Source of the DNA: a virus
Reading direction: 5' to 3' (one strand)
Length of the DNA stretch: 64,000 nt
UHGV virus genome: UHGV-0248979
Each line of letters opens with the position of its first letter. Position 1 is the stretch's first letter. A program made the translations under genes and the position numbers. The notes under the pieces were generated by a model. The model had not been told where the DNA came from. It searched no databases and saw nothing but the letters and a program-made list of their open reading frames with translations. Shown here piece by piece: positions 1,863 through 64,000 of the stretch.

Positions 1863-4379
1863 TTAACCCTTGATTTTCAGATACTGGTTCAGCTGAACTT
1901 CACCATTCAGATACCGCTCGTTAACGCGATCCAAAAACGCGAACCCGAGTTCGTTAACTTCCACGGTTTGGTATTTCACATGCGGATGGAGTTTGACAAA
2001 CGCTTTATCGTAACCGATATACGCGGGGTCGAAAGGAAGCAGGTCTTTATACCGCTCCATAATTTCGTCCAACTGTGTTGTTGAGATACGATAGTCTGGG
2101 TCGTCTTCCACTAGGGTGAGAACACCCCGTAAGTAGTCCCACAGGATTTTATTCAGCGTAGGCGAATAAAGGTGATACAGGTGCGGCAACGGCACAGGAT
2201 TCTGTGGGGGTGGTGTCGGGAACCAGTTAGTCATGTAATTTTCTACACGACTGTCCAGGTCACGGGCTACGTCCCTGAGTGCATACGTGTTCCCCGTTAC
2301 CAGCGTACGCAATGGTATTGTAGGGTCATCGACAGAGTAGGGATAACCATCATCAACAATATTGACACCCACAGTGTTGTCTTCGCGGAACACTACTTCG
2401 TCACGTAATAACAAGGAACCGCCAGCAACGACACGAATAACTTTGTCGTCACGACAATCAAATTGGTTGTTATTTGATAACAACCCGCTCGAGACAAAAC
2501 CGTGTTTCGGAATACGAAGTTCACCGGTGACTCCACGACAACGCACCGCGATGTGGTTTTCATCGGAATCACTCATCCATGCTTTACAGACTACAACGAT
2601 TTCTGGCCAAATGACGTGATAATCGATGCCGTGTACCAGAGGGTGACCGTTTAACCACACTTCAACGGTTTCCATCGGAATCCACAGTGTGCGTTGATTA
2701 CCTTCTTGGTTTCGGGCCAGAATAGGAATACGAATCTCCCCTTCTCTGACTGGCACATCGATTTCGAAATACAGATGGCGATCGTCGTAAATCACCGTAG
2801 GATGACGACGAGTACGGTCCACAGTCCAGGTAATGTTATTACCTTCACGGGTGTAATCCGTCCCTTCTACTGCCTTCAGATATTCGTCCCGTGGAATATC
2901 ATCGATAACTTTACGCAACCACAAGTTAACGTTTTGGCCTTCCTGAATTTCGAAATCATCGGCGTTATCAACGATAGTTACTGCCTCGTCTTTATCACCT
3001 TCAATTGCTTCGATAATTCTGGTGTTAGGGTTGCGTGCTTGGTAAACATCATAACCACGGTTTTGATGTGCTTCTAACAGCAGTCCGTCACCGTCATACT
3101 CGTACACGGTCGAGTTGGTTGCCAGTAACGCAGGTAGGGTAGCGCGGTATCCTCCCTCCGTTAGCGTAAGTCGCTGAGGGGTGTCGGCAGCATAACGACT
3201 TACAGCATTGTAACCGTAGGCATCAGTACACAAATCACGCGTAATATTCTCAAGCTTAGCAGCTGCTAGTCGGTTAAAAGCAGCTTGTTCCAGATTAGCG
3301 GCTTGCCACTCAGTTACGTTTGCATTCGCGCCGATCATCGCGTCGATAATCAGGTCATCTGATAATCGGTATAGATCGTGTATGTGTGCCGAGTTAAACA
3401 ACGGCGCAATATCCAGATAGTCGTCGCGAATAATCAACCTGATGATCAGATCGTCCAGGTCTGTGATTGAGCCACTAAAAACGTTGCGGTATTTTGCAAT
3501 ACGTTCAGTCGGGATTGATAAATCGTTCCATGTTAGCTGACGCAGTGCCTGGTGTCGGTGCCGATGGTAATAACGCCCCCGGCCTTTCCAGTAAAGCTGG
3601 ATTTCCGCATCGTTGTTAAAAATCCAGATGCCATCTTTTTTCGGAATATGGAGCAAGTATTTTCGTTTGCTATCCAGTTTGGACATAAACGTTTGTAAGT
3701 CGCCGCAGCGAAATTCTACAACACGGCGAACACGACCATCGACGCGAATGTCGATATCGTCCCACGTTTTAATATCCGCAGGTTTTGGAGAATCAACCAG
3801 TTCTCCGTTTAACCAGAATTCAACATACCCTTTGTTTTGTTGTTTCAGGTAGTTGAACCGGTCAATAACTTTTTGAACTTGTTCTCGATTCGGCGGTGAA
3901 TAAAACTCAACCGTTGTTGGGTTGATGTACGGTGCGTTCTCACCCCCGCTGTAACCAGGATAAATTCGCAGGTAACAGGGATCGTTGTCCAACCAGGCAT
4001 ACCGATCGGATTGCGGAATAGCCATGTAAACCATTCCTGCGCTGTTACGGTAGAAATAAACGTATTCGGAAGGAATTGTCGTTCCGTTTTCGTTATAGAC
4101 TTGAATCCAGGTGCTAAAACCGTTTACGCAGGTGGAAAGTTTCTTCCAACGGTTTAGGGGAATAGCAAAATTCCCCCAGTTTACGTGAAGCTTATCCACC
4201 GCATAGGCGTGCCACCACGAATTTTCTTTCGGTAAAGCGACCGGAATCCGACCGTGTTTGAAAAAGCCGATCGCCCCGGTCTTGGGTGAAAGACGGAAGG
4301 GTGCGATGTTGAGCACCCCGTCGAGATATGGACGCTGCCACGCTTTTTGGATGGCGTGGGCGACCAGCCAGTTCTCCAT
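1863..4379 (-). CDS. hypothetical protein, 838 aa, possibly structural
   Basis: Long ORF 2 nt from the next gene; no recognisable motif. Confidence 0.6.
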   Translation of the reverse strand: MENWLVAHAIQKAWQRPYLDGVLNIAPFRLSPKTGAIGFFKHGRIPVALPKENSWWHAYAVDKLHVNWGNFAIPLNRWKKLSTCVNGFSTWIQVYNENGTTIPSEYVYFYRNSAGMVYMAIPQSDRYAWLDNDPCYLRIYPGYSGGENAPYINPTTVEFYSPPNREQVQKVIDRFNYLKQQNKGYVEFWLNGELVDSPKPADIKTWDDIDIRVDGRVRRVVEFRCGDLQTFMSKLDSKRKYLLHIPKKDGIWIFNNDAEIQLYWKGRGRYYHRHRHQALRQLTWNDLSIPTERIAKYRNVFSGSITDLDDLIIRLIIRDDYLDIAPLFNSAHIHDLYRLSDDLIIDAMIGANANVTEWQAANLEQAAFNRLAAAKLENITRDLCTDAYGYNAVSRYAADTPQRLTLTEGGYRATLPALLATNSTVYEYDGDGLLLEAHQNRGYDVYQARNPNTRIIEAIEGDKDEAVTIVDNADDFEIQEGQNVNLWLRKVIDDIPRDEYLKAVEGTDYTREGNNITWTVDRTRRHPTVIYDDRHLYFEIDVPVREGEIRIPILARNQEGNQRTLWIPMETVEVWLNGHPLVHGIDYHVIWPEIVVVCKAWMSDSDENHIAVRCRGVTGELRIPKHGFVSSGLLSNNNQFDCRDDKVIRVVAGGSLLLRDEVVFREDNTVGVNIVDDGYPYSVDDPTIPLRTLVTGNTYALRDVARDLDSRVENYMTNWFPTPPPQNPVPLPHLYHLYSPTLNKILWDYLRGVLTLVEDDPDYRISTTQLDEIMERYKDLLPFDPAYIGYDKAFVKLHPHVKYQTVEVNELGFAFLDRVNERYLNGEVQLNQYLKIKG

Positions 4380-4389
4380 AGTGGACCTC

Positions 4390-5298
4390 TTACTGGTTGT
4401 TTATCGGTTTGGTGTTTTGGTTAAGTAATGTGTCGTATGCCATGATAAAAGCGTCTTTACGTTTTGCCACGTCACATTTCTTAATTAGCCCACCTAAACG
4501 GGAGCGGTTGAATACCACGTTCTCTAAGCAAGTGCGGGTAATAACAAAGAGAGACGGCGGGTATTCGATAGCGCTGGTAACAAGTTGACGATCGTAGCTA
4601 ATAAAACTACCCAAGCTCGTTGCCAGCATACCTTGCAAACTTACTACGCTGAGATCTTTTAAGCGTGCGGTAATGTCTGCAGCTTTTACCATCTCGACGA
4701 ATTCACCGATATTGCGTGGGAACAGGAACTCTGTGTTTCCGGTAACGGTTTCAAAAATCTGTGGTCCGAGGCGAAGTTCACGCTCTAACTGCTGCTGCAT
4801 TCTTAACATTTTAACTTCATCTTCGAAGTTGTTGTAGAACTGTCCTACGGAAAACAGGGCAGCGAGTGCCTTGACTTGACCGCTTTGATATGGAGCAAGT
4901 GCGTAGGTGTGTTCAATTGCATCGCTAATCCACCTGCTGAAGATCTCATGGTGATAAGACATACGTGACATTAATGTACCGAGCTTATCATTGTTCCGTT
5001 TCCACACTAATTCCCAACGTGCTTCGTCGAGACGTAATTGGTGCTCAATGGGGTTACGGATTTTCAGTACGCCGTTTTTGTCTAGCGTAGTGAAAGTTCG
5101 TGCGTCAACGTACACGTCATCACCGATGACGATCGGTAACGGGAACGGTTTTACATCGGCGGTTTCGATAACGTAATGTACTTCGTCAGACTGTGCAACA
5201 GTCTGATTGACTTTACGCGCCAGTTCCAAATCCGCGTGTAAGCGGGTAAGGTCTATGGTATTAAACGGAGTACCGTTGTAAGCGTTTTTGAGTGCCAT
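4390..5298 (-). CDS. hypothetical protein, 302 aa
   Basis: ORF with tight spacing, first gene of a leftward unit; divergent from the 5361 gene. Confidence 0.55.
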   Translation of the reverse strand: MALKNAYNGTPFNTIDLTRLHADLELARKVNQTVAQSDEVHYVIETADVKPFPLPIVIGDDVYVDARTFTTLDKNGVLKIRNPIEHQLRLDEARWELVWKRNNDKLGTLMSRMSYHHEIFSRWISDAIEHTYALAPYQSGQVKALAALFSVGQFYNNFEDEVKMLRMQQQLERELRLGPQIFETVTGNTEFLFPRNIGEFVEMVKAADITARLKDLSVVSLQGMLATSLGSFISYDRQLVTSAIEYPPSLFVITRTCLENVVFNRSRLGGLIKKCDVAKRKDAFIMAYDTLLNQNTKPINNQ

Positions 5299-5360
5299 GA
5301 GTATGATACCTTAGTATGACCCTTTTTCAAGGTCTTAAAGACTGAATATGGAGACGTTCC

Positions 5361-7418
5361 ATGAGTTTTATTCCACGAAACGGCGCGCCATTGAATAACA
5401 AGCAAGGGTGGCAGGATAACTCTGTCCCTGAACTTGTCCGGACTCCCACGGGTGATCCGATTCATAAGCCGCTGATCTTCACCTTTGCATCACGCGGGGT
5501 AGACGACGAGGCGTTCCCGTTATCCGGGGATAATGCATTGTCTCTGCTTGGTCGTGATTTGTTCGACCTGCGTGGCGATTACGCGACGTTCAACACACCC
5601 TTCCAGGCGATGTTTAATGCCAATGGTAACGAGTGTATGTATCAGCGTCTGGTACCGGAAGATGCGAAAGTCGCAGCTATCCGTCTGGTGGCTGACGTCC
5701 TCGAAACCAAAGTTCCTTCATACGAGCGTGAGAACGGCATTATCCAGTATGAAACTAACGGTAAGCCGAAGAAGAAAGGGGACATTGATGGCTTGAAAGT
5801 GGTTTTCCGTCTGCAAGTTGTCGAAGATGTAAGCACCCTGAAAAAAGGTGTGGCTACTGAAGGGACAATGACTGACGAAACTACCCAGGCGAAATCAAAG
5901 CTCTATCCGATCTTCGACATTAAAGGCCCGTACGCGGGTGCTGATGTCAACGGTTTCGGTTTTAAACTGGTTCCGCTGAACGAAAAATCCAGCCCATCTA
6001 TCGCGTCTGCTTATCAGACTAACGTAGGTGGACGTATGTACGCACTGCAATGGTTTGAAACCTTAGCAGGGGTTACATCGCCGGTAATTTGGAAGACCCT
6101 TAAAGGTCTTAGCAGCATCAATGTTAGCTTCAAGCCCGATGCATACTATCAGCCGATGGCTACCCAACTGGACTTCGAAGTCGTTGTTCCAGATGCCTAT
6201 CGTCAGACGATGCCAGACATCGGCGGTCTGCCGGACTACGGTCCTTTCGAAGAGTTCTACATTTACCGTGAAAACCTGGAAACTGTTCTGAAACTGGCAC
6301 AGTCTAAAATTCAGAATGCGAAACCAGCGATCACCGATCCGTATATGGTTGATATCTTCGGCGGCCTGGATTTAACCGGTCAAATGTACGATGGTCTGCA
6401 AGTTAGCCCATCTGATGAAGTGGGTAAAGTTGTCTTTTCTGCTTCTAACATTCACTATCTGCAGGGCGGTAGTGACGGGACGATGGGCAATGATAATTAC
6501 GACAAACTCGTGCGTCGTGAGATGAGCCAGTTCCCGGACGGTGGTAAAGTCCGTTACGATAACGAGCTGAAATATTCGTTAGGTTGTTTCTGGGACTCCG
6601 GCTTTAGCATGGATACCAAGAAAATGCTGACCAATTTCATTGGTCGCTCTCGTAACACGTTCCTGACACTCTGTACTCACGTTTATAACCAAGATCGTAA
6701 TGACTTACAAACCGAAGAGAACGTGAAGACAGCGCTGATCGAAATGATTACGTCTGTGCCTGAGTCGTCCTATTACGGTACCCCATCGTGCCGTGGTATG
6801 ATTACTGGCCAGTCTGCATTCATCCGTAACTCGAGCTACAAGAAACCGGTTCCGATGTGTTATAGCATTGCGAACTTCTTCTCGAAGTATCTCGGTTCCG
6901 GTGAAGGACGTGCAAAACCGGCGTATCGTTTCAGCCGTGGTGAAGAGACGATCATCGAAGATCTGTACGATCTGAGTATGCCGTGGAAAGGTAATGAGGT
7001 TTACGCATCCGACTGGGATGTGTCCCTGGTTACCGCACGTTCCCGCGACTACTATCGTTTGTTCATCCCAGCCATCCAGTCCATCTATAGCGAAGAACGT
7101 TCAGTGCTGAACAATGCACTGTTTAACTTTATCCTGACTTACGTTTATCGTGTCAGTGATCAGGTTTGGGCAGATATGTCCGGTGAAAGCCGTATGACGG
7201 ACGACGAACGCGCGAAAATGATTGAAAACAAAATCACCGAGCGTTTGGAAGGTCGCCTGGATAATATTGCCGACATTACCCCGAGTGCGTATATGACAGC
7301 GGACGATAAAGCCAACGGCTACTCTATCACGCTGGACATTAAAGCTGAAGGCGGTGTACTGTTGTCGCAGTTCAACACGACGATCAAAGTTTATCGTCGC
7401 GACAGTACGGAGAGCTAA
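5361..7418 (+). CDS. putative tail sheath-like structural protein (size and gene order only)
   Basis: 685-aa ORF followed 3 nt later by a 291-aa ORF and a strong terminator; sizes and order resemble sheath/tube pairs of large myoviruses; no motif confirmation. Confidence 0.3.
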   Translation: MSFIPRNGAPLNNKQGWQDNSVPELVRTPTGDPIHKPLIFTFASRGVDDEAFPLSGDNALSLLGRDLFDLRGDYATFNTPFQAMFNANGNECMYQRLVPEDAKVAAIRLVADVLETKVPSYERENGIIQYETNGKPKKKGDIDGLKVVFRLQVVEDVSTLKKGVATEGTMTDETTQAKSKLYPIFDIKGPYAGADVNGFGFKLVPLNEKSSPSIASAYQTNVGGRMYALQWFETLAGVTSPVIWKTLKGLSSINVSFKPDAYYQPMATQLDFEVVVPDAYRQTMPDIGGLPDYGPFEEFYIYRENLETVLKLAQSKIQNAKPAITDPYMVDIFGGLDLTGQMYDGLQVSPSDEVGKVVFSASNIHYLQGGSDGTMGNDNYDKLVRREMSQFPDGGKVRYDNELKYSLGCFWDSGFSMDTKKMLTNFIGRSRNTFLTLCTHVYNQDRNDLQTEENVKTALIEMITSVPESSYYGTPSCRGMITGQSAFIRNSSYKKPVPMCYSIANFFSKYLGSGEGRAKPAYRFSRGEETIIEDLYDLSMPWKGNEVYASDWDVSLVTARSRDYYRLFIPAIQSIYSEERSVLNNALFNFILTYVYRVSDQVWADMSGESRMTDDERAKMIENKITERLEGRLDNIADITPSAYMTADDKANGYSITLDIKAEGGVLLSQFNTTIKVYRRDSTES

Positions 7419-57428: not shown

Positions 57429-57435
57429 AAAAGAT

Positions 57436-57461
57436 TACCCTACTCCTTCGGGAGTAGGGTA
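57436..57461. terminator. bidirectional intrinsic terminator hairpin
   Basis: taccctactcc / ttcg / ggagtagggta with A-run upstream and T-run downstream. Confidence 0.7.
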
Positions 57462-57470
57462 GCTTTTATT

Positions 57471-58050: not shown

Positions 58051-58073
58051 CCCTACTCCCGGAGGAGTAGGGG
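58051..58073 (-). terminator. intrinsic terminator hairpin
   Basis: ccctactcc / cgga / ggagtagggg; T-run follows on minus strand. Confidence 0.55.
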
Positions 58074-58080
58074 TCTTAGA

Positions 58081-59025
58081 TTATTTTTTGGTTTGGCCCA
58101 GCTTTTCAAGAACCAGTTCACGAATGTACTTTTGAGTACGTTTCTTCGGTGGTAAAGCCATAAGTGTGTCAACAATTTCCTGGCCACCGATAACCTTGCT
58201 GACGAGTTGTTGAACTTGGAAGAGTTCTGCTTCTTCGTCGCTAATTTCGTTAGCTTGGTCTTTCTGACACAATGCTTCTACCAGGTCAGCTACGGATATT
58301 TCATTTTCGTCACCAGGGAAATCCAGGTTTAACGATTCGAAAACATCGCGTTTAACGAGCACAGATTTCAGATCGTCGTAGTTTTCACAGACGGCGACTT
58401 CTGTGCCAGGTACCGCCGGTTCATTGTACGCAGCAAACAAATCTTCCATTACTTTCTGATTGTGCTCTACTTTCAAAGCGTGGAAAGTTTTGGAGGCGCT
58501 GGTTAAAACGTAACCAATTTGCGGCCAGCTGCTCAGAATGAAGCAAACCGTGTTTCCAGTTAGACCGATATTGCCCTGACGTGCGTCAAAAAAGATTTCT
58601 TCGGTGCGAGAAATCTGTCCAAGTTCGAAATAGGTTTCTTTTTTGGCCGCGACGACTTCATACTGATTCTTACCCTGCTCTACAACAACTAACCAGTTAC
58701 CAAGAATTTCGTGTTGGTAGTTTGATACGGAAAGTGACTCGTTGCCCGCGTGCGGCTTAATGTCAATGGACGCCCGACGCATACCCATTGAGAAGTTGAA
58801 CTTAACCCCGTCATGATACGCTGAGGCGTAGTCGATCGGGATAATTTCCGAGACACGTTCGATATCCATAATTGTTTCCTGCGTAACACATGCAGGATCG
58901 GTACCAATTAGATAATTATACAGAAAGTCGGCTGTAACATCTACTGATTTCCGGAAGATTGGGAAATTATGGCTGCGACGGAAAATGTTAGCCAGTGTGT
59001 AAATTACTTCAGATGGAAAAGTCAT
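58081..59025 (-). CDS. hypothetical protein, 314 aa (paralog family, member 2)
   Basis: N-terminus FPSEVIYTLANIFRRSHNFPIFRKSVDVTADFLYNYL. Confidence 0.5.
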   Translation of the reverse strand: MTFPSEVIYTLANIFRRSHNFPIFRKSVDVTADFLYNYLIGTDPACVTQETIMDIERVSEIIPIDYASAYHDGVKFNFSMGMRRASIDIKPHAGNESLSVSNYQHEILGNWLVVVEQGKNQYEVVAAKKETYFELGQISRTEEIFFDARQGNIGLTGNTVCFILSSWPQIGYVLTSASKTFHALKVEHNQKVMEDLFAAYNEPAVPGTEVAVCENYDDLKSVLVKRDVFESLNLDFPGDENEISVADLVEALCQKDQANEISDEEAELFQVQQLVSKVIGGQEIVDTLMALPPKKRTQKYIRELVLEKLGQTKK

Positions 59026-59078
59026 TTTAATAGTCCTCTTTTAGGTTTGTTCAAATCAACTAAGGGTTATGTAAAAAG

Positions 59079-59558
59079 TTAAAACAGTGGTAAGTTACGC
59101 CATTGACCTACCGAGTAAAAAGCTTTTGGATGTTTGCGGATATACGCTTTCGCTTCTTCTGGCAACCAACGATCGCCTACCAGTTTTTGTTGCGCAACAA
59201 TTACCGCCAACAGTAAATACGGGTTTTTCGCACCGGGGAACTTTGCATTGGTTTCTAGCGCAATATCTAACATTGACGACCAGCCCAGTAATTTACGTTG
59301 CGCCGGTAAACGTCCTTCAATAAACATTAGCCAGTCCATGATTTGTCTGGGTTTATACGGACACGTATAATTCGCCCAACTCACCATGGCGAACTTAATA
59401 GCCTTCGCAATAACCCATACAGGAACTGCCACGAAAAGACAGAAAATGGTCAACTGTGAGGCAGGTGCATCGATAAAAGTAACCGCTACAAGAACCATAC
59501 ACAGTTCAAGCACCACAAACCAAAAACGTGTTGGATAACGCCAAATGAATTTTATCAT
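59079..59558 (-). CDS. membrane protein with two predicted TM helices (holin-like candidate)
   Basis: Hydrophobic segments FWFVVLELCMVLVAVTFI and LTIFCLFVAVPVWVIAKAI. Confidence 0.45.
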   Translation of the reverse strand: MIKFIWRYPTRFWFVVLELCMVLVAVTFIDAPASQLTIFCLFVAVPVWVIAKAIKFAMVSWANYTCPYKPRQIMDWLMFIEGRLPAQRKLLGWSSMLDIALETNAKFPGAKNPYLLLAVIVAQQKLVGDRWLPEEAKAYIRKHPKAFYSVGQWRNLPLF

Positions 59559-59590
59559 ATCTCTGTTCCTTTAGGGAATGAAAATAAAAT

Positions 59591-59620
59591 TACCCCTTAC
59601 TCCGTAAAGGGTAAGGGGTA
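59591..59620 (-). terminator. intrinsic terminator hairpin
   Basis: taccccttac ... gtaaggggta; T-run follows on minus strand. Confidence 0.55.
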
Positions 59621-59624
59621 GAGA

Positions 59625-60134
59625 TTAGAAGAACGGCCGATTTGGAATGACAGCGTACTCTAAAATGAACATGTGCTCTGGGGCGTCTTCTTTACGCCAG
59701 ACTTTGTGTGTTAACACAAGTTTTTCCAGAATCGTTAGAAAACTACGCTGGCAGTATGTGTTTTCGCCAAGTAGCAGTTTCTGAAGTTCTACAGTAGCGT
59801 CCATATACGCCTGTTTAAAGACTAGGCTACGGTTATACTGTCCGGTAAAATTCCAAAGCAAGACTTTCCCTTCTTCGGTTTCTTTTACCGTTGGACGTAA
59901 ACCACAAATCCACAGCAAGGCAAGGTTGACGTTCCAGTCAAACTCTAAACCTTCCTCTTCGTCATCACCGAATGCTGTAGGTAAAGCATCGTAAAATTCG
60001 TGTTTCTCTGCGAATTCTTCATCCGATTTAATCTCGTCTTCGATGCTGCTTCGGACGATACCGTAAATGTCTTTCGCGGTTAGTTGTGCGGCTTTTGTAA
60101 TGCCTTTATACCAATCGGTTACAACGATGCTCAA
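59625..60134 (-). CDS. hypothetical protein, 169 aa
   Basis: ORF overlapping the SLT gene by 4 nt. Confidence 0.5.
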   Translation of the reverse strand: MSIVVTDWYKGITKAAQLTAKDIYGIVRSSIEDEIKSDEEFAEKHEFYDALPTAFGDDEEEGLEFDWNVNLALLWICGLRPTVKETEEGKVLLWNFTGQYNRSLVFKQAYMDATVELQKLLLGENTYCQRSFLTILEKLVLTHKVWRKEDAPEHMFILEYAVIPNRPFF

Positions 60135-60856
60135 AGGGTAACTCCTCTATTGATTGGAAAACTCGTGTTTATCGTATCCCAAATTTTACTAACTTCCGCC
60201 AATTGAATCTGACGTGATGTTTTCTTCGCAAACGCAAGCTGACGTGGGGCCGAGCCCACAACAACAGGCACATCGATTTTCGCGCTATAGAACGCGGCAT
60301 CTTTCATAAAGCCTGCCATTTCTCGTTGTGCTGCTCGAGATTTGCTTTTGATTCGCGTGTGAGCGCCACTTTCACCCCAGTGGTAAGCTAACGCAACTTC
60401 AGCCATGGTGGGCTTGCGTTTGAGTCGTTTGGTTAACCCCTTCTCAAGATGTTTAACATACGCGGTAGCCAGCAAAACAGCGTTACGCGGATTATACAAA
60501 TCGGCGTTCTGACTAAGACCTAATTCTTTTCCATAAAGCTTTAGCAGACTACGCTTGGTACTTGGAAGCATCTGTACCAGGCTGTGTGCCCGTGAGCTTT
60601 TGTTGTAAGCCTTGGGATCAAAACGTGATTCGCGATAAATCAGCGTAATCATCAGCTTAGGATCAACGCCTTGCTTTCGTGAGATTTCCACAATTAACGG
60701 ACTGACTTTTTCGAACCGATGTTGGATTTGTGTAAACTCACGCTGATGTTTAGTTTGTGGCGTTGACGTTGACGCCTGTGCGTTAAACGCGAAAAGTGTT
60801 ACCAGTAAAAGAAAGAAGATACGAAACATTTTGTTTCTCCAGTTGGATTTATACAT
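60131..60856 (-). CDS. secreted lytic transglycosylase (SLT domain), candidate endolysin
   Basis: N-terminal hydrophobic signal-like FRIFFLLLVTLFAFNAQA; ...LIYRESRFDPKAYNKSSRAHSLVQMLPST... resembles the SLT catalytic E-S ... GLMQ region. Confidence 0.6.
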   Translation of the reverse strand: MYKSNWRNKMFRIFFLLLVTLFAFNAQASTSTPQTKHQREFTQIQHRFEKVSPLIVEISRKQGVDPKLMITLIYRESRFDPKAYNKSSRAHSLVQMLPSTKRSLLKLYGKELGLSQNADLYNPRNAVLLATAYVKHLEKGLTKRLKRKPTMAEVALAYHWGESGAHTRIKSKSRAAQREMAGFMKDAAFYSAKIDVPVVVGSAPRQLAFAKKTSRQIQLAEVSKIWDTINTSFPINRGVTL

Positions 60857-60929
60857 TTCCGTATTCCGTAAGACGAAATGACGGCGCGGACAGCTAATAC
60901 TCCTTTGTTGTGTGCCCTAATGATAATAT

Positions 60930-61490
60930 CTATTTAAAAGAGTTTGGAATTAATGACTCTGCTTCTCGGTACAGCTTATCGGGTAAGTATAACGTGTAGT
61001 GTTGCCTCCTCGGTTCAAGTTTTTTGTAAAGCCACAAGAAGATTTCTTGCCTTTCCCAGGAATCTAACCACCCATTTGCCATTCCCAGTGGAGGGATAGC
61101 AACGCTGGTATCCAGTTCCTCAACACAATCTGCTAATGCGGTAATGCCCGCAGTAACATAAGAAACCTTGGACTTTAAACGCCAATGTGTTTTCGTGGGG
61201 AGCAAGATGCACTTTTCATCAGGGTAAACGTAAACACTTCCAATCTTGATTTCGTCTTCGCGACACCGCTTACGGTAATCTTGATAAAGGTTGGGGTAGC
61301 GTTCACGGCACGCCAGTGCAATACCGCGACCCATTGCTCCTACACAGTTAATGGTAACGACTTTATAGTCTTCGGGCGCATTAAAAAGATCGTTACCAAT
61401 TTTAGATTCTTTACGTACCGTTAACATAACGAATCGGCCATAGTTGATGTGTAGTATTAAAACGTGTACCGCCGATTGATAGCTCGACAA
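60930..61490 (-). CDS. macro domain protein, OARD1/TARG1-like
   Basis: ...[35 protein letters not shown]... and ...[10 protein letters not shown]...[17 protein letters not shown]... parallel human OARD1 GDLFACP...[22 protein letters not shown] and YLITKKRASHKP...LSMPRIGCGLDRLQWE; start uncertain (TTG at 61490 or ATG at 61427). Confidence 0.6.
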   Translation of the reverse strand: [186 protein letters not shown]

Positions 61491-61514
61491 GTATAGCGAT
61501 ATATGTTTTACCCA

Positions 61515-61883
61515 TTAGCGATTTTTTGTAATCCATTGTTTGACCGCCGTTTCTAAACCTTCGTGTTGTAAGCCCAGGCGTTGCATAGTCAGTGCCAAGT
61601 TGAGCGTGTGGACAACCTGTTCACGGAACTGATGATCGTTCATGCGGTCCCAGACCTTTTCTACTGAAATATTGTGTTTCCACAGCAAATAAGCTTCGCG
61701 ACACGATGCACGACGAACCAAGCTGGGTTTAACAAAAGGTAGCTCGATTTCAGGTAAGTAACCTAAAAGCTTAACTAGCTCTGTTACCTGCGTCTTACCA
61801 AAGTCGTCGCACTGATAACAAATTTGTAGAATGTCAATTTCATTCAACGGTATGCCGTAAATTGATGGGTTCACTGTGAACAT
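61515..61883 (-). CDS. hypothetical protein, 122 aa
   Basis: ORF with GAGGAG SD. Confidence 0.5.
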   Translation of the reverse strand: MFTVNPSIYGIPLNEIDILQICYQCDDFGKTQVTELVKLLGYLPEIELPFVKPSLVRRASCREAYLLWKHNISVEKVWDRMNDHQFREQVVHTLNLALTMQRLGLQHEGLETAVKQWITKNR

Positions 61884-62085
61884 TCGTATTCTCCTCAGGC
61901 TCGAAATATGGTTCGGGTGGCAACGTCCCTAAAGCCCCTTGGATACAAGCCGTCAATGAAGGTTTGCCGAAACAGACCTTACCTATTGTCCCTACATTGG
62001 GATGTTGTAAGAACGCTTTTGCACGTTCGTATTCTTTCCAACAAATACTCGTATCCAAACCACCCACTCCGTACGATTTTAACAT
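61840..62085 (-). CDS. hypothetical small protein, about 81 aa
   Basis: Start moved to internal ATG with AGGAGAG SD, avoiding overlap with the GNAT gene. Confidence 0.35.
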   Translation of the reverse strand: MLKSYGVGGLDTSICWKEYERAKAFLQHPNVGTIGKVCFGKPSLTACIQGALGTLPPEPYFEPEENTNVHSEPINLRHTVE

Positions 62086-62152
62086 AATTAGCTCTCCTGA
62101 CGTAAATTTCTCACACTCATAGTGAGGTACGCCAAGAGAGCTTTTATTGTTT

Positions 62153-62596
62153 TTAGAATGTTTTGCTAAAATCGACCCACTCACGATCGTGTGAGTAAAC
62201 CGCCTGATAGCCGCGTCGGATGAAATACTCTTTTGCTTCTTTACATTTCGCATACATGCCAGTAACAATTTCACCGAAAACTTCATCAGCGGCAATTGCT
62301 TTGAAAATCTCTTTCATTACACCCCGCTGACGATAGTCTGGGAGCACGTATACCGAACGTATCTTAAGTGAACCGTTACGATTCCGATAACTACAGTATC
62401 CTACCGCGACATCATCCTGATACACCAGAACTATGCAGTTACCTTCGATCAGTTGCCGAGCTTTTAATTTCGGTACCGACGTTTTTATTTTTAGTAATGT
62501 AGCCTGGTGGTCCAAGTAACGGTAGTGTAGTTTGAGTAAATCGGCAGCTTGTCGTTCGCCGACTTTAGAAGATGCGTTCAACAAATAAATTTCCAT
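62153..62596 (-). CDS. GNAT-family N-acetyltransferase
   Basis: ...VGYCSYRNRNGSLKIRSVYVLPDYRQRGVMKEIFKAI... fits the GNAT acetyl-CoA-binding motif A; start taken at ATG rather than the track's TTG. Confidence 0.6.
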   Translation of the reverse strand: MEIYLLNASSKVGERQAADLLKLHYRYLDHQATLLKIKTSVPKLKARQLIEGNCIVLVYQDDVAVGYCSYRNRNGSLKIRSVYVLPDYRQRGVMKEIFKAIAADEVFGEIVTGMYAKCKEAKEYFIRRGYQAVYSHDREWVDFSKTF

Positions 62597-62627
62597 TTGC
62601 AAACCTTAGAGACGCAAAAAAGTAAAA

Positions 62628-62756
62628 TTAAAACCAACGCGCGATGACGAATGCCGCTGCGGCTAATATGGCCGTGGTGATTATCAACCCACCCCATGAA
62701 AGTTCCGCATCGTATAATGCGGATATCGCTACATTCGTAGTGTTTATCGAGGTCAT
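62628..62756 (-). CDS. small hydrophobic peptide, 42 aa (below the ORF-track cutoff)
   Basis: Hand-translated MTSINTTNVAISALYDAELSWGGLIITTAILAAAAFVIARWF; AGGAG SD 6 nt upstream. Confidence 0.4.
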   Translation of the reverse strand: MTSINTTNVAISALYDAELSWGGLIITTAILAAAAFVIARWF

Positions 62757-62814
62757 TTTCTGCTCCTAGTAATACCCTCACGCCGGAGGGTATTTTCCGG
62801 ATTATTTGGGTGTT

Positions 62815-62913
62815 TAGTCTTCAAACGCCCATCTGTGTTGTTTAACCAGCAAGTTTAAACCTTTACCGATTAACCACATCGCACCAAGTGTTAACAGAAC
62901 CCCTTCAACCATA
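62815..62913 (-). CDS. small hydrophobic peptide, 32 aa (below the ORF-track cutoff)
   Basis: Hand-translated MVEGVLLTLGAMWLIGKGLNLLVKQHRWAFED; AGGAGAAGGG upstream. Confidence 0.35.
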
Positions 62914-62923
62914 TTCCCTTCTC

Positions 62924-63109
62924 CTAATTCCGCCATTCGCATTCACGTTGACGCCAAATTGAACCCCATGATAGTTTAATCAGATAAGATGAAACTACCC
63001 ATAAAATCATCACCACGCAAAACATGACATAAAGAACCGCTAGAATGGACATGAAACCAAACCCCGCCGCGTCCATAAAACGACGGAACCAATCAGTTTG
63101 CATAAACAA
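62924..63109 (-). CDS. small membrane protein, 61 aa
   Basis: Hydrophobic segment FGFMSILAVLYVMFCVVMILWVVSSYLI; AGGAG 6 nt before the TTG start. Confidence 0.4.
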   Translation of the reverse strand: MFMQTDWFRRFMDAAGFGFMSILAVLYVMFCVVMILWVVSSYLIKLSWGSIWRQRECEWRN

Positions 63110-63995
63110 TTTTTACTCCTTCGTTATACACCGCAGGCAATGTCACTCCTTCCGGTTCGATGACACAGTACGATGCTTCATTAAGTTTAGAATGGACCTC
63201 AGCTTCGTGGGAAACTACCAAGAGTTGTGAAAATTCTCCCGAGTTTGCTAACGTTTTAATAAAGCCGACCAGGTTATTACGGTGTTCCTCGTCCATGCCT
63301 TCCGAAGGCTCATCCAAAAGCAACGGAAACTGATGCAACTTCAGCGCTTTGTACGCAGTCAGTCTGAACATCAGATTAAATATAGCACGCTGTGCCTTAG
63401 ACCCTTTACGCACGTCAGGAACAGGCTCAGGGTGCGTTTTTAGCTGGACAGGAAAAGTATAATCCAAATCACCGTCAGTGAGATCACAGGGCATAACACG
63501 CATGGGGTACGTCCAGACCTGTTCGATATAACGCGTCATTAACTCTGTGATTCTAACGATAGCGTTGTAAAAATACTTTCTAAGTACACCCTTTTCTGGC
63601 GAGAAGGCTTGAATCATCAGTTTGTTATTGAACTGTTGGGCTTGTAAGTCTGTAAGTTCGCGCTCCAAACTGTTGAGCTGATTCAATTCATTTTCCATCT
63701 GACGATAACGTTCGCGTGCAGTTGTAAAAGCATCCAGCTTCCCTTCCCGCACTCGTAAGAGTTCCTCGACGACCGTATTTGTCAACGTAACCTTAACATC
63801 ACTCTCTAACCGTTCGAATAACGCACTGAAATCATCTACAGCACGTTTAACATTCACTAGATAGGTAAGTGTCGTGTTAGCCAGTTCGTGCTCTCTACGA
63901 CGCATTGAGAGCATCTCTGTGGCTTTACCTAACCGTGACTGTTGGAAGGCGATCTTTTGTTGTAAAGCACCATCGACGTTACCAACGGCCGCCAC
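63093..63995 (-). CDS. Rad50/SbcC-like ABC ATPase, C-terminal portion (may extend past the window end)
   Basis: Long coiled-coil-like region, then ...LHQFPLLLDEPSEGMDEEHRNNL...LLVVSHEAEV (Walker B, D-loop, H-loop-like). Confidence 0.45.
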   Translation of the reverse strand: MAAVGNVDGALQQKIAFQQSRLGKATEMLSMRRREHELANTTLTYLVNVKRAVDDFSALFERLESDVKVTLTNTVVEELLRVREGKLDAFTTARERYRQMENELNQLNSLERELTDLQAQQFNNKLMIQAFSPEKGVLRKYFYNAIVRITELMTRYIEQVWTYPMRVMPCDLTDGDLDYTFPVQLKTHPEPVPDVRKGSKAQRAIFNLMFRLTAYKALKLHQFPLLLDEPSEGMDEEHRNNLVGFIKTLANSGEFSQLLVVSHEAEVHSKLNEASYCVIEPEGVTLPAVYNEGVKIVYAN

Positions 63996-64000
63996 GGCAT

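What the first reader, a model, noticed from the sequence alone, without database searches (positions are those of the whole stretch)
61515..62596. GNAT acetyltransferase and two small genes co-transcribed upstream of the macro domain gene
Seen: a GNAT motif (SVYVLPDYRQRGVMKEIFKAI) in 62153-62596, then two short ORFs, then the macro domain gene, all on the minus strand with overlaps. Established: GNAT enzymes acetylate small molecules, proteins or tRNA, and some macro domains deacetylate O-acetyl-ADP-ribose. Inference: an acetylation/ADP-ribose processing module that may modify a host factor or immune signal. The link between the two enzymes is conjecture from adjacency alone.
Basis: partly seen in the sequence, partly recalled or inferred. 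Interest (0 to 1): 0.5.

Follow-up and report, generated by a model that had tools for sequence, protein, structure and literature searches.

The report
Phage acetyltransferase paired with EF-Tu mimic
The acetyltransferase gene is real, but its constant partner in related giant phages is a small protein copied from the start of the host translation factor EF-Tu, not the known anti-DarT macro-domain enzyme further downstream.

Summary
On the minus strand lie a GNAT gene (62596..62153), small ORFs, and a macro-domain gene (61427..60930). There are three small ORFs, not two.

The macro protein is the ortholog of AdfM, a DarG2-like enzyme already shown to remove ADP-ribose from DNA, and it needs no acetyltransferase. 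It occurs without a neighbouring GNAT in most nucleus-forming phage lineages sampled.

The GNAT's invariant neighbour is orfB (62085..61840, 81 aa). This microprotein is homologous to EF-Tu residues about 11-50 (strand beta1, P-loop, helix alpha1; hhalign 98%, E 3e-13), but its GTP-binding motif is degenerate.

GNAT and orfB occur together in five genera of SPN3US-like jumbo phages and are both missing from a sixth that keeps the same gene order. A conserved 66-80 nt spacer separates them. It folds into a long hairpin that buries the orfB ribosome-binding site (z = -7; compensatory changes at four pairs).

I propose a two-gene GNAT/EF-Tu-mimic module aimed at the translation apparatus or at EF-Tu-centred immunity, sitting beside AdfM but independent of it. 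The target is inferred, not shown. Interest is moderate.

The parts
62153..62596 (-). GNAT acetyltransferase, 147 aa. Homolog of SPN3US gp191; phrog_3810.
   Evidence: Pfam Acetyltransf_1, _7 and _10 score above their cut-offs; phrog_3810 E 1e-25. It is 34-40% identical to the GNATs of Seoulvirus, Erskinevirus and Machinavirus. dN/dS is 0.06. The subfamily has only 16 representatives among 1.84 billion proteins.
62090..62142 (-). Conserved RNA hairpin in the GNAT-orfB spacer. The outer stem pairs 5'-AGCUCUC...-3' with the orfB Shine-Dalgarno region (AGGAG at 62098..62094). An inner hairpin lies at about 62126..62110.
   Evidence: MFE is -29.5 kcal/mol with z = -7.0. All 14 distinct homologous spacers adopt the same architecture. 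Covariance model R1 finds the element once per genome, including Kwan, which was not in the training set. Eight outer pairs are paired in 14 of 14 sequences, with compensatory changes at four pairs. There is no Rfam match.
61840..62085 (-). orfB, an 81-aa microprotein homologous to EF-Tu residues about 11-50 (strand beta1, degenerate P-loop, helix alpha1). Homolog of SPN3US gp192.
   Evidence: NCBIfam EF-Tu models match at E 4e-4. The family profile matches solved EF-Tu chains at E 3e-7. hhalign against EF-Tu N-termini gives 98% probability, E 2.9e-13. Relatives are annotated 'putative elongation factor Tu' in GenBank. dN/dS is 0.12. The gene always lies directly after the GNAT.
61515..61883 (-). 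orfA, 122 aa, function unknown. Homolog of SPN3US gp194; phrog_11720. It overlaps orfB by 44 nt. It is a variable member of the block.
   Evidence: phrog_11720 E 6.5e-31. There are no Pfam, NCBIfam, PADLOC or PDB matches. It is present in SPN3US, Stratton, Huxley and Kwan, and absent from ChrisDB, Caitlin and L013.
61411..61515 (-). orfC, a 34-aa ORF that links orfA (TAATG) to the macro gene (17-nt overlap). It is a truncated relative of the SPN3US gp195 family, which precedes the macro gene in relatives.
   Evidence: An independent gene caller calls it. Divergence from L009 is dominated by synonymous changes. Its N-terminal motif aligns with SPN3US gp195, Stratton gp218 and SNUABM29_239 (weak).
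60930..61427 (-). Macro-domain protein, 165 aa. Ortholog of AdfM, a DarG2-like DNA ADP-ribosylglycohydrolase.
   Evidence: NCBIfam and PADLOC DarG matches at E about 1e-36. Solved DarG macrodomains match at E 1e-26. It is 61% identical to Asesino gp217. The catalytic Asn (PhiKZ N23 = window N27) and the Lys of the PTK motif are conserved. The function is described in PMC13309987.
62628..62756 (-). 42-aa hydrophobic peptide, first gene after the upstream hairpin. Probably the first gene of the same transcription unit.
   Evidence: ORF list and sequence reading, with AGGAGC before the ATG. It has no family match.
62771..62794 (-). Hairpin AUACCCUCCGGCGUGAGGGUAU upstream of the block. Possible unit boundary.
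   Evidence: Fold z = -1.95. It shares the UACCCU...AGGGUA motif with the terminator-like hairpins at 59614..59590, 58072..58051 and 57435..57462.
60131..60856 (-). SLT lytic transglycosylase (alternative start at 60829). The next gene in the block.
   Evidence: Pfam SLT E 5e-15. It is syntenic in all relatives.

Best explanation
The window comes from an uncultivated jumbo phage of about 225 kb, related to Salmonella phage SPN3US and to the Erwinia Erskinevirus, Machinavirus and Wellingtonvirus phages. The flagged region is part of a conserved block of accessory genes that holds two separate functions.

(1) A two-gene module.
- It consists of a small GNAT N-acetyltransferase followed by orfB, a microprotein derived from the first 50 or so residues of EF-Tu.
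- orfB keeps the beta1 strand motif HxNVGTIG and helix alpha1. It has lost a working GTP-binding loop and everything downstream, so it cannot be a GTPase. It can only imitate that surface of EF-Tu.
- orfB synthesis is restrained by a conserved long hairpin that pairs its ribosome-binding site with a sequence starting 6-11 nt after the GNAT stop codon.
- My proposed mechanism: the GNAT acetylates a component of the translation machinery that EF-Tu's N-terminal region resembles or binds (EF-Tu itself, or a partner of it). orfB then acts as an EF-Tu-like pseudo-substrate, adaptor or decoy, made in limited and regulated amounts.

(2) AdfM.
- Downstream, through overlapping small genes (orfA, orfC), lies AdfM, which independently removes DarT2 ADP-ribose from phage DNA.

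What is shown: gene identities, the EF-Tu homology, co-occurrence, the RNA structure, and AdfM orthology.

What is inferred: that GNAT and orfB work together; that the target is related to translation or EF-Tu; and that the hairpin acts on translation rather than on processing or termination.
For: Evidence that GNAT and orfB form a module:
- They are directly adjacent in every locus examined across Seoulvirus, Erskinevirus, Machinavirus, Wellingtonvirus and the window's own clade. Genes on both sides come and go.
- Both are missing together from Phobos, which keeps the SMC...macro-SLT gene order.
- Both families have the same very narrow distribution: 16 GNAT representatives among 1.84e9 proteins, and orfB relatives only in these phages among 5.8e9 proteins.
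- The spacer length is constant (66-80 nt). Its sequence is 78% conserved where the flanking proteins are only 35-50% identical. It is 92% identical to L009, where dS is about 1.5.

Evidence for EF-Tu mimicry:
-.
- The invariant residues are the EF-Tu-specific beta1 motif, not the generic P-loop.

Evidence for the hairpin:
-.
- In Kwan the Shine-Dalgarno sequence changes to GGGGAA and the 5' arm co-varies.

Leads towards the translation machinery:
- The GNAT profile's PDB matches include N-alpha-acetyltransferases (Naa50, archaeal NAT) at E about 1e-3.
- Iyer et al. 2021 noted group-1 jumbo-phage GNATs closest to ribosomal-protein GNATs (PMC7824862).
- E. coli RimI acetylates EF-Tu (PMC9079301).

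Evidence that AdfM is independent:
-.
Against: - No direct evidence links the GNAT's activity to orfB or to EF-Tu.
- All the phages that carry the pair are related and collinear, so adjacency may partly be inherited gene order.
- The GNAT is not a RimI ortholog (TIGR01575 17 bits vs cut-off 86). Its best family and PDB matches are generic GNATs: ArsN2, YjcF, 2FIW.
- Its motif A deviates from the canon: the final G/A is replaced by an invariant Met, and SPN3US has Lys in place of Gly.
- orfB has no conserved lysine, and its EF-Tu-like segment is not at its N-terminus. It is therefore not an obvious acetyl acceptor mimic.
- AlphaFold models of both proteins were of low confidence (pLDDT 51 and 50), so there is no structural support.
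- Statistical covariation in the hairpin is modest because most pairs never vary.
- The hairpin's 5' arm lies outside the GNAT ORF, so simple ribosome-driven coupling would melt only a few pairs.
- In Kwan and Wellington, orfB is split across two reading frames.
Confidence: 0.45

Rival explanations
1. GNAT and the macro enzyme act in one pathway, an acetylation and ADP-ribose processing module. For example, the GNAT modifies an ADP-ribose-related signal or the same target as AdfM, or the macro enzyme removes an acetylated ADP-ribose species.
For: - GNAT and macro lie in one block and one orientation in five genera.
- orfB, orfA, orfC and the macro gene are chained by overlaps in the window.
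- Moabite, a distant lineage, has an unrelated GNAT that overlaps its macro gene.
- From my own knowledge: the related human macrodomain TARG1 can deacylate O-acyl-ADP-ribose.
Against: - PhiKZ AdfM alone removes DarT2 ADP-ribose from DNA and rescues DarT2 toxicity (PMC13309987).
- There is no GNAT next to AdfM in PhiKZ-like phages, Phabio, RAY, PhiEaH1, Eowyn or Phobos.
- Macro homologs occur in 260-278 phage records, against 50 for this GNAT.
- Two to five variable genes separate the two genes.
- GNATs do not produce O-acetyl-ADP-ribose (established knowledge).
Confidence: 0.1
2. Neighbours by descent only. The GNAT is a stand-alone enzyme, such as a small-molecule, polyamine or antibiotic acetyltransferase, or a modifier of host RNA polymerase like Rac. 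orfB is an unrelated stand-alone EF-Tu decoy or regulator. The hairpin merely sets orfB expression or ends the GNAT transcript.
For: - All carriers are collinear relatives.
- The GNAT's best matches are to small-molecule enzymes or generic GNATs (ArsN2 28.7 bits, YjcF, 2FIW, SSAT, PaiA).
- The hairpin is followed by a U-rich tract (UAUUUAUGUUU) and could terminate or attenuate transcription.
- Other phage GNATs target RNA polymerase (Rac; PMC7824862).
Against: - The two genes are absent together from Phobos, have the same narrow distribution, and are never separated although indels are frequent on both sides.
- The spacer is of constant length and conserved, and it begins right after the GNAT stop codon.
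Confidence: 0.3
3. orfB is a decaying remnant of a captured tuf gene fragment with no function of its own.
For: - The P-loop is degenerate.
- The AlphaFold model is largely disordered.
- The gene is split across two frames in Kwan and Wellington.
Against: - dN/dS is 0.12.
- The gene is retained in five genera, with six invariant and fourteen nearly invariant residues.
- It has its own conserved ribosome-binding site and regulatory hairpin.
Confidence: 0.04

Closest known systems
AdfM (anti-DarT factor macro), the PhiKZ gp104 / Asesino gp217 family; bacterial DarG2 macrodomain
   Same: The window's macro protein is 61% identical to Asesino gp217. It matches DarG models and solved DarG macrodomains, and it keeps the catalytic Asn and the Lys of the PTK motif. 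It is a stand-alone macrodomain without the DarT-binding C-terminal domain, like the phage AdfM proteins.
   Different: Nothing substantial differs; it is a new member. The gp195-like gene that precedes it in relatives is truncated here to 34 aa. Activity and nuclear import were not tested for this protein.
RimI and other ribosomal-protein or N-alpha-acetyltransferases (RimI also acetylates EF-Tu; PMC9079301)
   Same: It is a small single-domain GNAT. Relatives are annotated 'ribosomal-protein-alanine acetyltransferase'. Profile matches to Naa50 and archaeal NAT reach E about 1e-3. Its neighbour resembles RimI's second substrate, EF-Tu.
   Different: It fails the RimI family cut-off (17.4 vs 86.4 bits), and motif A is atypical. 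The EF-Tu-like segment of orfB is internal, not N-terminal, so orfB does not simply copy RimI's substrate end.
Phage GNATs that take over host functions, such as Rac of phiKMV-like phages, which acetylates the RNA polymerase alpha subunit
   Same: A phage-encoded small GNAT located in an accessory gene block.
   Different: No sequence relationship was tested or found. No host-protein mimic partner or hairpin that sequesters a ribosome-binding site is reported in the Rac passages I read.
EF-Tu (N-terminal G-domain segment) and trypsin- or caspase-generated EF-Tu N-terminal fragments
   Same: orfB aligns with EF-Tu residues about 11-50 at 48% profile identity. The best PDB matches are the isolated 37-45 residue N-terminal EF-Tu fragments of nicked EF-Tu (2HCJ, 5I4R chain C). 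The type IV Thoeris caspase cuts EF-Tu after R45 and R59.
   Different: orfB has no Walker A GxxxxGK[ST] motif, no G2-G5 motifs and no domains II and III. It has an extra conserved N-terminal motif (CWxEYxRVxPFL) and a conserved GALGTLP motif.
GNAT toxin-antitoxin pairs (TacT, AtaT, ItaT, KacT), which block the loading of aminoacyl-tRNA onto EF-Tu or IF2
   Same: A small GNAT plus a small adjacent partner protein, with a possible link to the EF-Tu step of translation.
   Different: The partner lies downstream, is not an RHH or DNA-binding antitoxin, and is translationally repressed rather than made in excess. No NCBIfam or PADLOC toxin model matched.

Membership tests
GNAT (GCN5-related N-acetyltransferase) superfamily | Profile match above the curated threshold | tested here: met
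   PF00583 33.2 bits (cut-off 20.7), PF13508 32.9 bits (27) and PF13673 27.0 bits (23.6); phrog_3810 'acetyltransferase' E 1e-25.
GNAT (GCN5-related N-acetyltransferase) superfamily | Motif A, Q/R-x-x-G-x-G/A, the acetyl-CoA pyrophosphate-binding loop | tested here: inconclusive
   The window has R89-Q-R-G92-V-M94. Arg is invariant. Gly is replaced by Lys in the SPN3US group. The last position is an invariant Met rather than G/A. The loop binds through backbone amides, so binding is not excluded.
GNAT (GCN5-related N-acetyltransferase) superfamily | GNAT fold and acetyl-CoA-dependent transfer | not testable with these tools
   The AlphaFold model from the shallow permitted alignment had pLDDT 49.6. 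Its secondary-structure order is GNAT-like but unreliable. Activity needs biochemistry.
RimI (ribosomal protein S18 / EF-Tu N-alpha-acetyltransferase) | Match to the equivalog model TIGR01575 above its cut-off | tested here: not met
   17.4 bits vs cut-off 86.4. Solved RimI (9MTO) matches only at E 0.2 with the family profile.
GNAT toxins of type II toxin-antitoxin systems | Match to toxin family models, and an adjacent RHH-type antitoxin | tested here: not met
   No NCBIfam or PADLOC toxin model matched at E <= 0.1. The neighbour is EF-Tu-like, not an RHH protein.
EF-Tu / translational GTPases (for orfB) | Sequence homology to the N-terminal beta1 / P-loop / alpha1 segment | tested here: met
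   hhalign probability 98%, E 2.9e-13, 40 columns. The profile matches solved EF-Tu chains at E 3.4e-7, and 59 of the 60 matches listed are EF-Tu or EF-Tu fusion chains, the last being eIF2-gamma. NCBIfam EF-Tu models match at E 4e-4.
EF-Tu / translational GTPases (for orfB) | Walker A motif GxxxxGK[ST] | tested here: not met
   The window has GKVCFGKPS. Relatives have GHVDHSRS, GHVDHGRS or GRVAFDDT. None of the 27 family members has the canonical motif.
EF-Tu / translational GTPases (for orfB) | Complete G domain (G2-G5) plus domains II and III | tested here: not met
   The protein is 69-112 aa long, and homology ends at about EF-Tu residue 50. orfB is an EF-Tu-derived fragment, not a GTPase.
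AdfM / DarG2-type macrodomain (for the downstream gene) | Macrodomain of the DarG/TARG1 class, with the catalytic Asn and the Lys of PTKxxW | tested here: met
   NCBIfam DarG E 1.7e-36. The score of 126 bits is below the whole-protein cut-off of 250 because only the macro half of the DarG model (profile positions 7-155 of 338) is matched. PADLOC DarG 2e-37. PDB 5M3I matches at E 1e-26. N27 and the PTK motif align with PhiKZ N23.
AdfM / DarG2-type macrodomain (for the downstream gene) | Removes DarT2 ADP-ribose from ssDNA and is imported into the phage nucleus | not testable with these tools
   Activity was shown for PhiKZ AdfM, and nuclear localisation for the PhiKZ, PhiPA3 and Asesino proteins (PMC13309987). 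For the window protein this is inferred from 61% identity to the Asesino protein.
Known RNA families (for the GNAT-orfB hairpin) | Match to an Rfam covariance model | tested here: not met
   No match at E <= 1 in 59000..64000.

The most novel reading that the evidence does not exclude
orfB is a host-protein mimic. It is an EF-Tu N-terminal decoy or adaptor that, with its dedicated GNAT, forms a previously undescribed phage module. That module either rewires EF-Tu-dependent translation or blunts EF-Tu-centred immunity (Lit, type IV Thoeris caspase cleavage after R45/R59, Avs7 co-factor use). The dose of orfB is set by an RNA switch that occludes its ribosome-binding site.
Probability: 0.2. Interest if true: 0.75.

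Novelty: new variant of a known kind. Interest (0 to 1): 0.5.

Why it matters
EF-Tu has recently emerged as a recurrent hub of anti-phage immunity. Lit and the type IV Thoeris caspase cleave it, and Avs7 uses it as a co-factor.

In the papers I searched I found no description of a phage protein that imitates EF-Tu. This finding would give a concrete, testable candidate:
- a conserved EF-Tu N-terminal look-alike,
- tied to a dedicated acetyltransferase,
- under its own RNA control,
- present in well-studied, genetically tractable phages (SPN3US, Asesino).

It also corrects the functional reading of the neighbouring macro gene, which is AdfM (anti-DarT) and not an acetyl-ADP-ribose enzyme. And it shows that 'putative elongation factor Tu' annotations in these genomes are misleading, because the protein cannot be a GTPase.

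Tried and rejected
- DNA-level search of 60000..64000 against 50,697 phage records found nothing. Relatives were reachable only at protein level.
- AlphaFold2 of orfB (27-sequence alignment) and of the GNAT (7 close sequences, the only ones permitted) both gave low confidence (pLDDT 51.4 and 49.6). No fold search was run, because the matches would be meaningless.
- The first word-indexed homolog searches for orfB and the GNAT returned only near-identical proteins.
- A scan for distant GNAT loci in viral contigs failed once (no conserved stretch). A second attempt returned only loci already held.
- orfA has no informative match in Pfam, NCBIfam, PADLOC or PDB; the best was BrxR at E 0.27.
- I tested whether the genes next to AdfM in other lineages are cryptic GNATs. 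They are not, by Pfam or by pairwise phmmer.
- The inner-hairpin palindrome CTCACTATGAGTG is not repeated elsewhere in the window, so there is no sign of a regulon.
- L018 and L019, which matched orfB, turned out to carry a full-length EF-Tu gene of a 370-500 kb phage. They are not the microprotein.
- I considered ribosome-driven translational coupling of orfB to the GNAT. It ranks low because the anti-Shine-Dalgarno arm lies outside the GNAT ORF.
- Literature searches found no study of SPN3US gp191 or gp192, or of a phage EF-Tu mimic.
Full report
**What is there**

Every gene in this block is on the minus strand. Reading the sequence and ORF list gives this order:
- the C-terminus of an SMC-like protein (63995..63093);
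- three tiny hydrophobic ORFs;
- a hairpin (62794..62771);
- a 42-aa peptide (62756..62628);
- a GNAT gene (62596..62153, 147 aa);
- a 67-nt spacer;
- orfB (62085..61840, 81 aa, with AGGAGA 7 nt before the ATG);
- orfA (61883..61515, 122 aa, overlapping orfB by 44 nt);
- a 34-aa orfC (61515..61411, whose ATG overlaps the orfA stop as TAATG);
- the macro gene (61427..60930, 165 aa, overlapped by orfC for 17 nt);
- an SLT transglycosylase (60856..60131);
- a 169-aa gene (60134..59625), followed by a good terminator-like hairpin (59614..59590).

The GNAT passes three Pfam GNAT models and the macro gene passes Pfam Macro. An independent gene caller on identical 225-kb metagenomic contigs gives the same gene models, including the 34-aa ORF. 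GNAT and orfB are under purifying selection against a 79-86% related phage (dN/dS 0.06 and 0.12). There are three small genes, not two. GNAT and orfB do not overlap.

**What genome this is**

There is no DNA-level match in 50,697 phage records. Every protein in the block has 35-65% identical homologs, in the same order, in Salmonella phage SPN3US (Seoulvirus) and in Erwinia phages of Erskinevirus, Machinavirus and Wellingtonvirus. Uncultivated contigs of 220-225 kb are 79-100% identical at protein level across the block. The SPN3US equivalents are gp191 (GNAT), gp192 (orfB), gp194 (orfA), gp195 (related to orfC), gp196 (macro) and gp198 (SLT).

**The macro gene is already explained**

- It matches DarG models at E about 1e-36 (NCBIfam and PADLOC).
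- It matches the solved DarG macrodomains of M. tuberculosis and T. aquaticus at E 1e-26 and 3e-21.
- A 2026 paper names this chimallivirus protein AdfM. PhiKZ gp104 removes DarT2 ADP-ribose from DNA in vitro and rescues DarT2 toxicity on its own. The PhiKZ, PhiPA3 and Asesino proteins localise to the phage nucleus (PMC13309987).
- The window protein is 61% identical to Asesino gp217. It keeps the catalytic Asn (PhiKZ N23 = window N27) and the Lys of the PTK motif.

This is a DNA ADP-ribosylglycohydrolase acting against DarTG2. No acetylation step is involved in the activity shown for it.

**Is the GNAT linked to the macro gene?**

Within the SPN3US-like supergroup both genes are always in the block. 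They are separated by two to five genes whose identity varies. SPN3US gp193-like genes are absent from the window. orfA-like genes are absent from ChrisDB, Caitlin and L013.

Outside that group, AdfM homologs occur in 260-278 phage records, against 50 for this GNAT. I inspected the neighbours of AdfM in PhiKZ-like PA_ZH1, Phabio, RAY, PhiEaH1, Eowyn, and Phobos, which keeps the SMC...macro-SLT gene order. None is a GNAT by Pfam or by pairwise HMM comparison. The one exception is Serratia phage Moabite, where an unrelated GNAT overlaps the macro gene. That is a hint, but jumbo phages carry several GNATs and one coincidence is weak evidence.

**The GNAT's real partner**

orfB gave an unexpected hit to the N-terminus of EF-Tu (NCBIfam, E 4e-4). 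The Erwinia phage homologs are even closer: KHVNVGTIGHVDHSRS against EF-Tu's KPHVNVGTIGHVDHGKTT. Several GenBank records call them 'putative elongation factor Tu' or 'putative GTPase'. The supporting searches are:
- A family profile matches solved EF-Tu chains at E 3e-7. The top two matches are the isolated 37-45 residue N-terminal fragments of nicked EF-Tu.
- The profile still reaches EF-Tu fragments at E about 1e-5 in a database of 5.8 billion proteins.
- Profile-profile comparison gives 98% probability and E 2.9e-13, over orfB columns 35-74 and EF-Tu residues 11-50.

The invariant residues are H-x-N-V-G-x-I-G, the EF-Tu-specific beta1 strand. The Walker A lysine and threonine are not conserved in any of the 27 members. 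The protein ends where EF-Tu's switch I begins. So orfB is derived from EF-Tu but cannot be a GTPase. AlphaFold gives two helices and disorder (pLDDT 51), which is consistent with a fragment that folds only on a partner.

**Evidence that GNAT and orfB form a module**

1. orfB follows the GNAT directly in every locus of five genera. The small ORFs upstream of the GNAT and the genes downstream of orfB vary, and Kwan has a tandem GNAT paralog upstream.
2. Both are absent together from Phobos, which keeps the same gene order.
3. Both families are confined to this clade. Only 16 representatives of the GNAT subfamily exist among 1.84 billion proteins. The named ones are from Asesino, Kwan and Wellington. 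orfB relatives were found only in these phages.
4. The spacer is 66-80 nt long in all of them. It is far more conserved than the flanking coding sequence: 78% mean column identity where the proteins are 35-50% identical.

**The spacer is a structured RNA**

All 14 distinct spacers fold into the same long, irregular hairpin (MFE -27 to -34 kcal/mol). In the window the z-score is -7.0 against shuffles.
- The outer stem pairs 5'-AGCUCUCC(UUACG) with (CGUNA)GGAGAGCU-3'. It therefore sequesters the orfB Shine-Dalgarno sequence. The ATG lies 7-8 nt beyond the stem.
- Covariance model R1, built from these sequences, finds the element exactly once per genome. It also finds it in Kwan, which was not used for training.
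- In Kwan the Shine-Dalgarno region reads GGGGAAGC and the 5' arm reads GCUUCCC. That amounts to two compensatory pair changes.
- SPN3US has a U-A to A-U swap, and a fourth pair shows UG, GC, CG and UA.
- The inner hairpin differs in sequence but is kept in Erskinevirus and Kwan.
- By the shuffle control the covariation is modest, because most pairs never vary. The case rests on conservation, energetics and a handful of compensatory changes.
- There is no Rfam match.

What the hairpin does is inferred. Translational repression of orfB is the simplest reading. An RNase III processing site (20-25 bp of near-continuous helix) or an attenuator (a U-rich tract follows the stem) remain possible.

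**What the GNAT might do**

The GNAT is a generic small GNAT.
- Its best matches are ArsN2 (28.7 bits, far below cut-off), YjcF and 2FIW. After these come N-alpha-acetyltransferases (Naa50, archaeal NAT) at E about 1e-3.
- It is not a RimI ortholog (17 bits vs 86).
- Motif A is atypical, with an invariant Met in place of the last G/A.

Iyer et al. noted group-1 jumbo-phage GNATs closest to ribosomal-protein GNATs and suggested that they modify the translation apparatus (PMC7824862). E. coli RimI acetylates EF-Tu (PMC9079301). Together with an EF-Tu look-alike as obligate neighbour, the most economical hypothesis is a module aimed at translation or EF-Tu, with orfB as pseudo-substrate, adaptor or decoy. 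This step is inference. orfB has no conserved lysine, and its EF-Tu-like part is internal, so it is not a simple substrate copy.

EF-Tu is a recurrent node in anti-phage defence. Lit is one example. The type IV Thoeris caspase cuts after R45 and R59 (bioRxiv 10.1101/2024.10.24.620036). Avs7 uses EF-Tu as a co-factor (PMC13581612). These give a plausible selective context, but no direct link.

**Novelty and verdict**

- The macro gene is a new member of a known, characterised family.
- The GNAT is a new member of a known superfamily.
- orfB's resemblance to EF-Tu had been noticed only as a misleading database annotation.
- The pairing of GNAT, EF-Tu-derived microprotein and Shine-Dalgarno-sequestering hairpin appears in no paper retrieved by my searches.

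I class it as a new variant of a known kind: a phage host-takeover or counter-defence enzyme with a host-protein mimic. Interest is moderate (0.5). The anatomy is well supported, the mechanism is open, and the experiments are straightforward in SPN3US or Asesino.

Noticed in passing
window 62090..62142 (minus strand); homologous spacers in L001-L024 and L033: A conserved hairpin of about 55-70 nt lies between the GNAT and orfB and buries the orfB Shine-Dalgarno sequence. It shows compensatory changes in SPN3US and Kwan and has no Rfam family. It could be a translational repressor, an RNase III site or an attenuator.
   Followed up: yes
window 61411..61515 (minus strand): An unflagged 34-aa gene (orfC) bridges orfA and the macro gene. 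It is conserved with mostly synonymous changes in L009. It looks like a truncated relative of the SPN3US gp195 / Stratton gp218 family, which precedes and overlaps the AdfM gene in SPN3US, Stratton and SNUABM_29; that family may be AdfM's true functional neighbour.
   Followed up: partly
L033 (Erwinia phage Kwan) 2511..3867: Wellingtonvirus has two tandem GNAT paralogs (gp215 and gp216). Its orfB homolog is split across two reading frames: the N-terminal CWNEYQR part at 3462.. and the NVGTIGHVD part inside annotated gp217. This may be a frameshift, an insertion or a sequencing or annotation problem.
   Followed up: partly
L025 (Serratia phage Moabite) 3523..4432: A GNAT unrelated to the window's (Pfam Acetyltransf_1, 31 bits) overlaps the start of Moabite's AdfM-like macro gene by 38 nt, in a different context (RNA polymerase beta, helicase, ABC-like ATPase). 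This is an independent GNAT-macro adjacency.
   Followed up: partly
window 57435..57462, 58051..58072, 59590..59614, 62771..62794: The intergenic hairpins share a UACCCU...AGGGUA stem motif. Three are followed by U-runs (terminator-like) and one is bidirectional between convergent genes. This may be a family of phage terminators or processing signals.
   Followed up: no
window 62814..63103 and 62628..62756 (minus strand): A run of three or four very small hydrophobic ORFs (32-59 aa; phrog_13448 and phrog_16515) lies between the SMC gene and the GNAT. The number varies among relatives.
   Followed up: no
L018 and L019 (IMG/VR contigs of 497 kb and 372 kb), about 4962..6191: These very large phage contigs encode a full-length 409-aa EF-Tu. 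The ORF translations around it suggest a tRNA-gene-rich stretch, but no tRNA scan was run. It is unrelated to the microprotein family.
   Followed up: no
window 60829..60856: The SLT start is ambiguous. The longest ORF starts at 60856 (241 aa), but the second ATG at 60829 has the better ribosome-binding site (GGAGAAACAAAATG) and is the one an independent gene caller chose (232 aa).
   Followed up: no
L036-L039 (ENA metagenome scaffolds of about 225 kb): The exact orfB protein is listed in 156 blocks of the public assembly collection. About 35 of these have their longest contig at 0.2-1 Mb, and the four scaffolds read are about 225 kb. This uncultivated phage is therefore common in some sampled environment; the sample names begin VATA22-2.
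   Followed up: no
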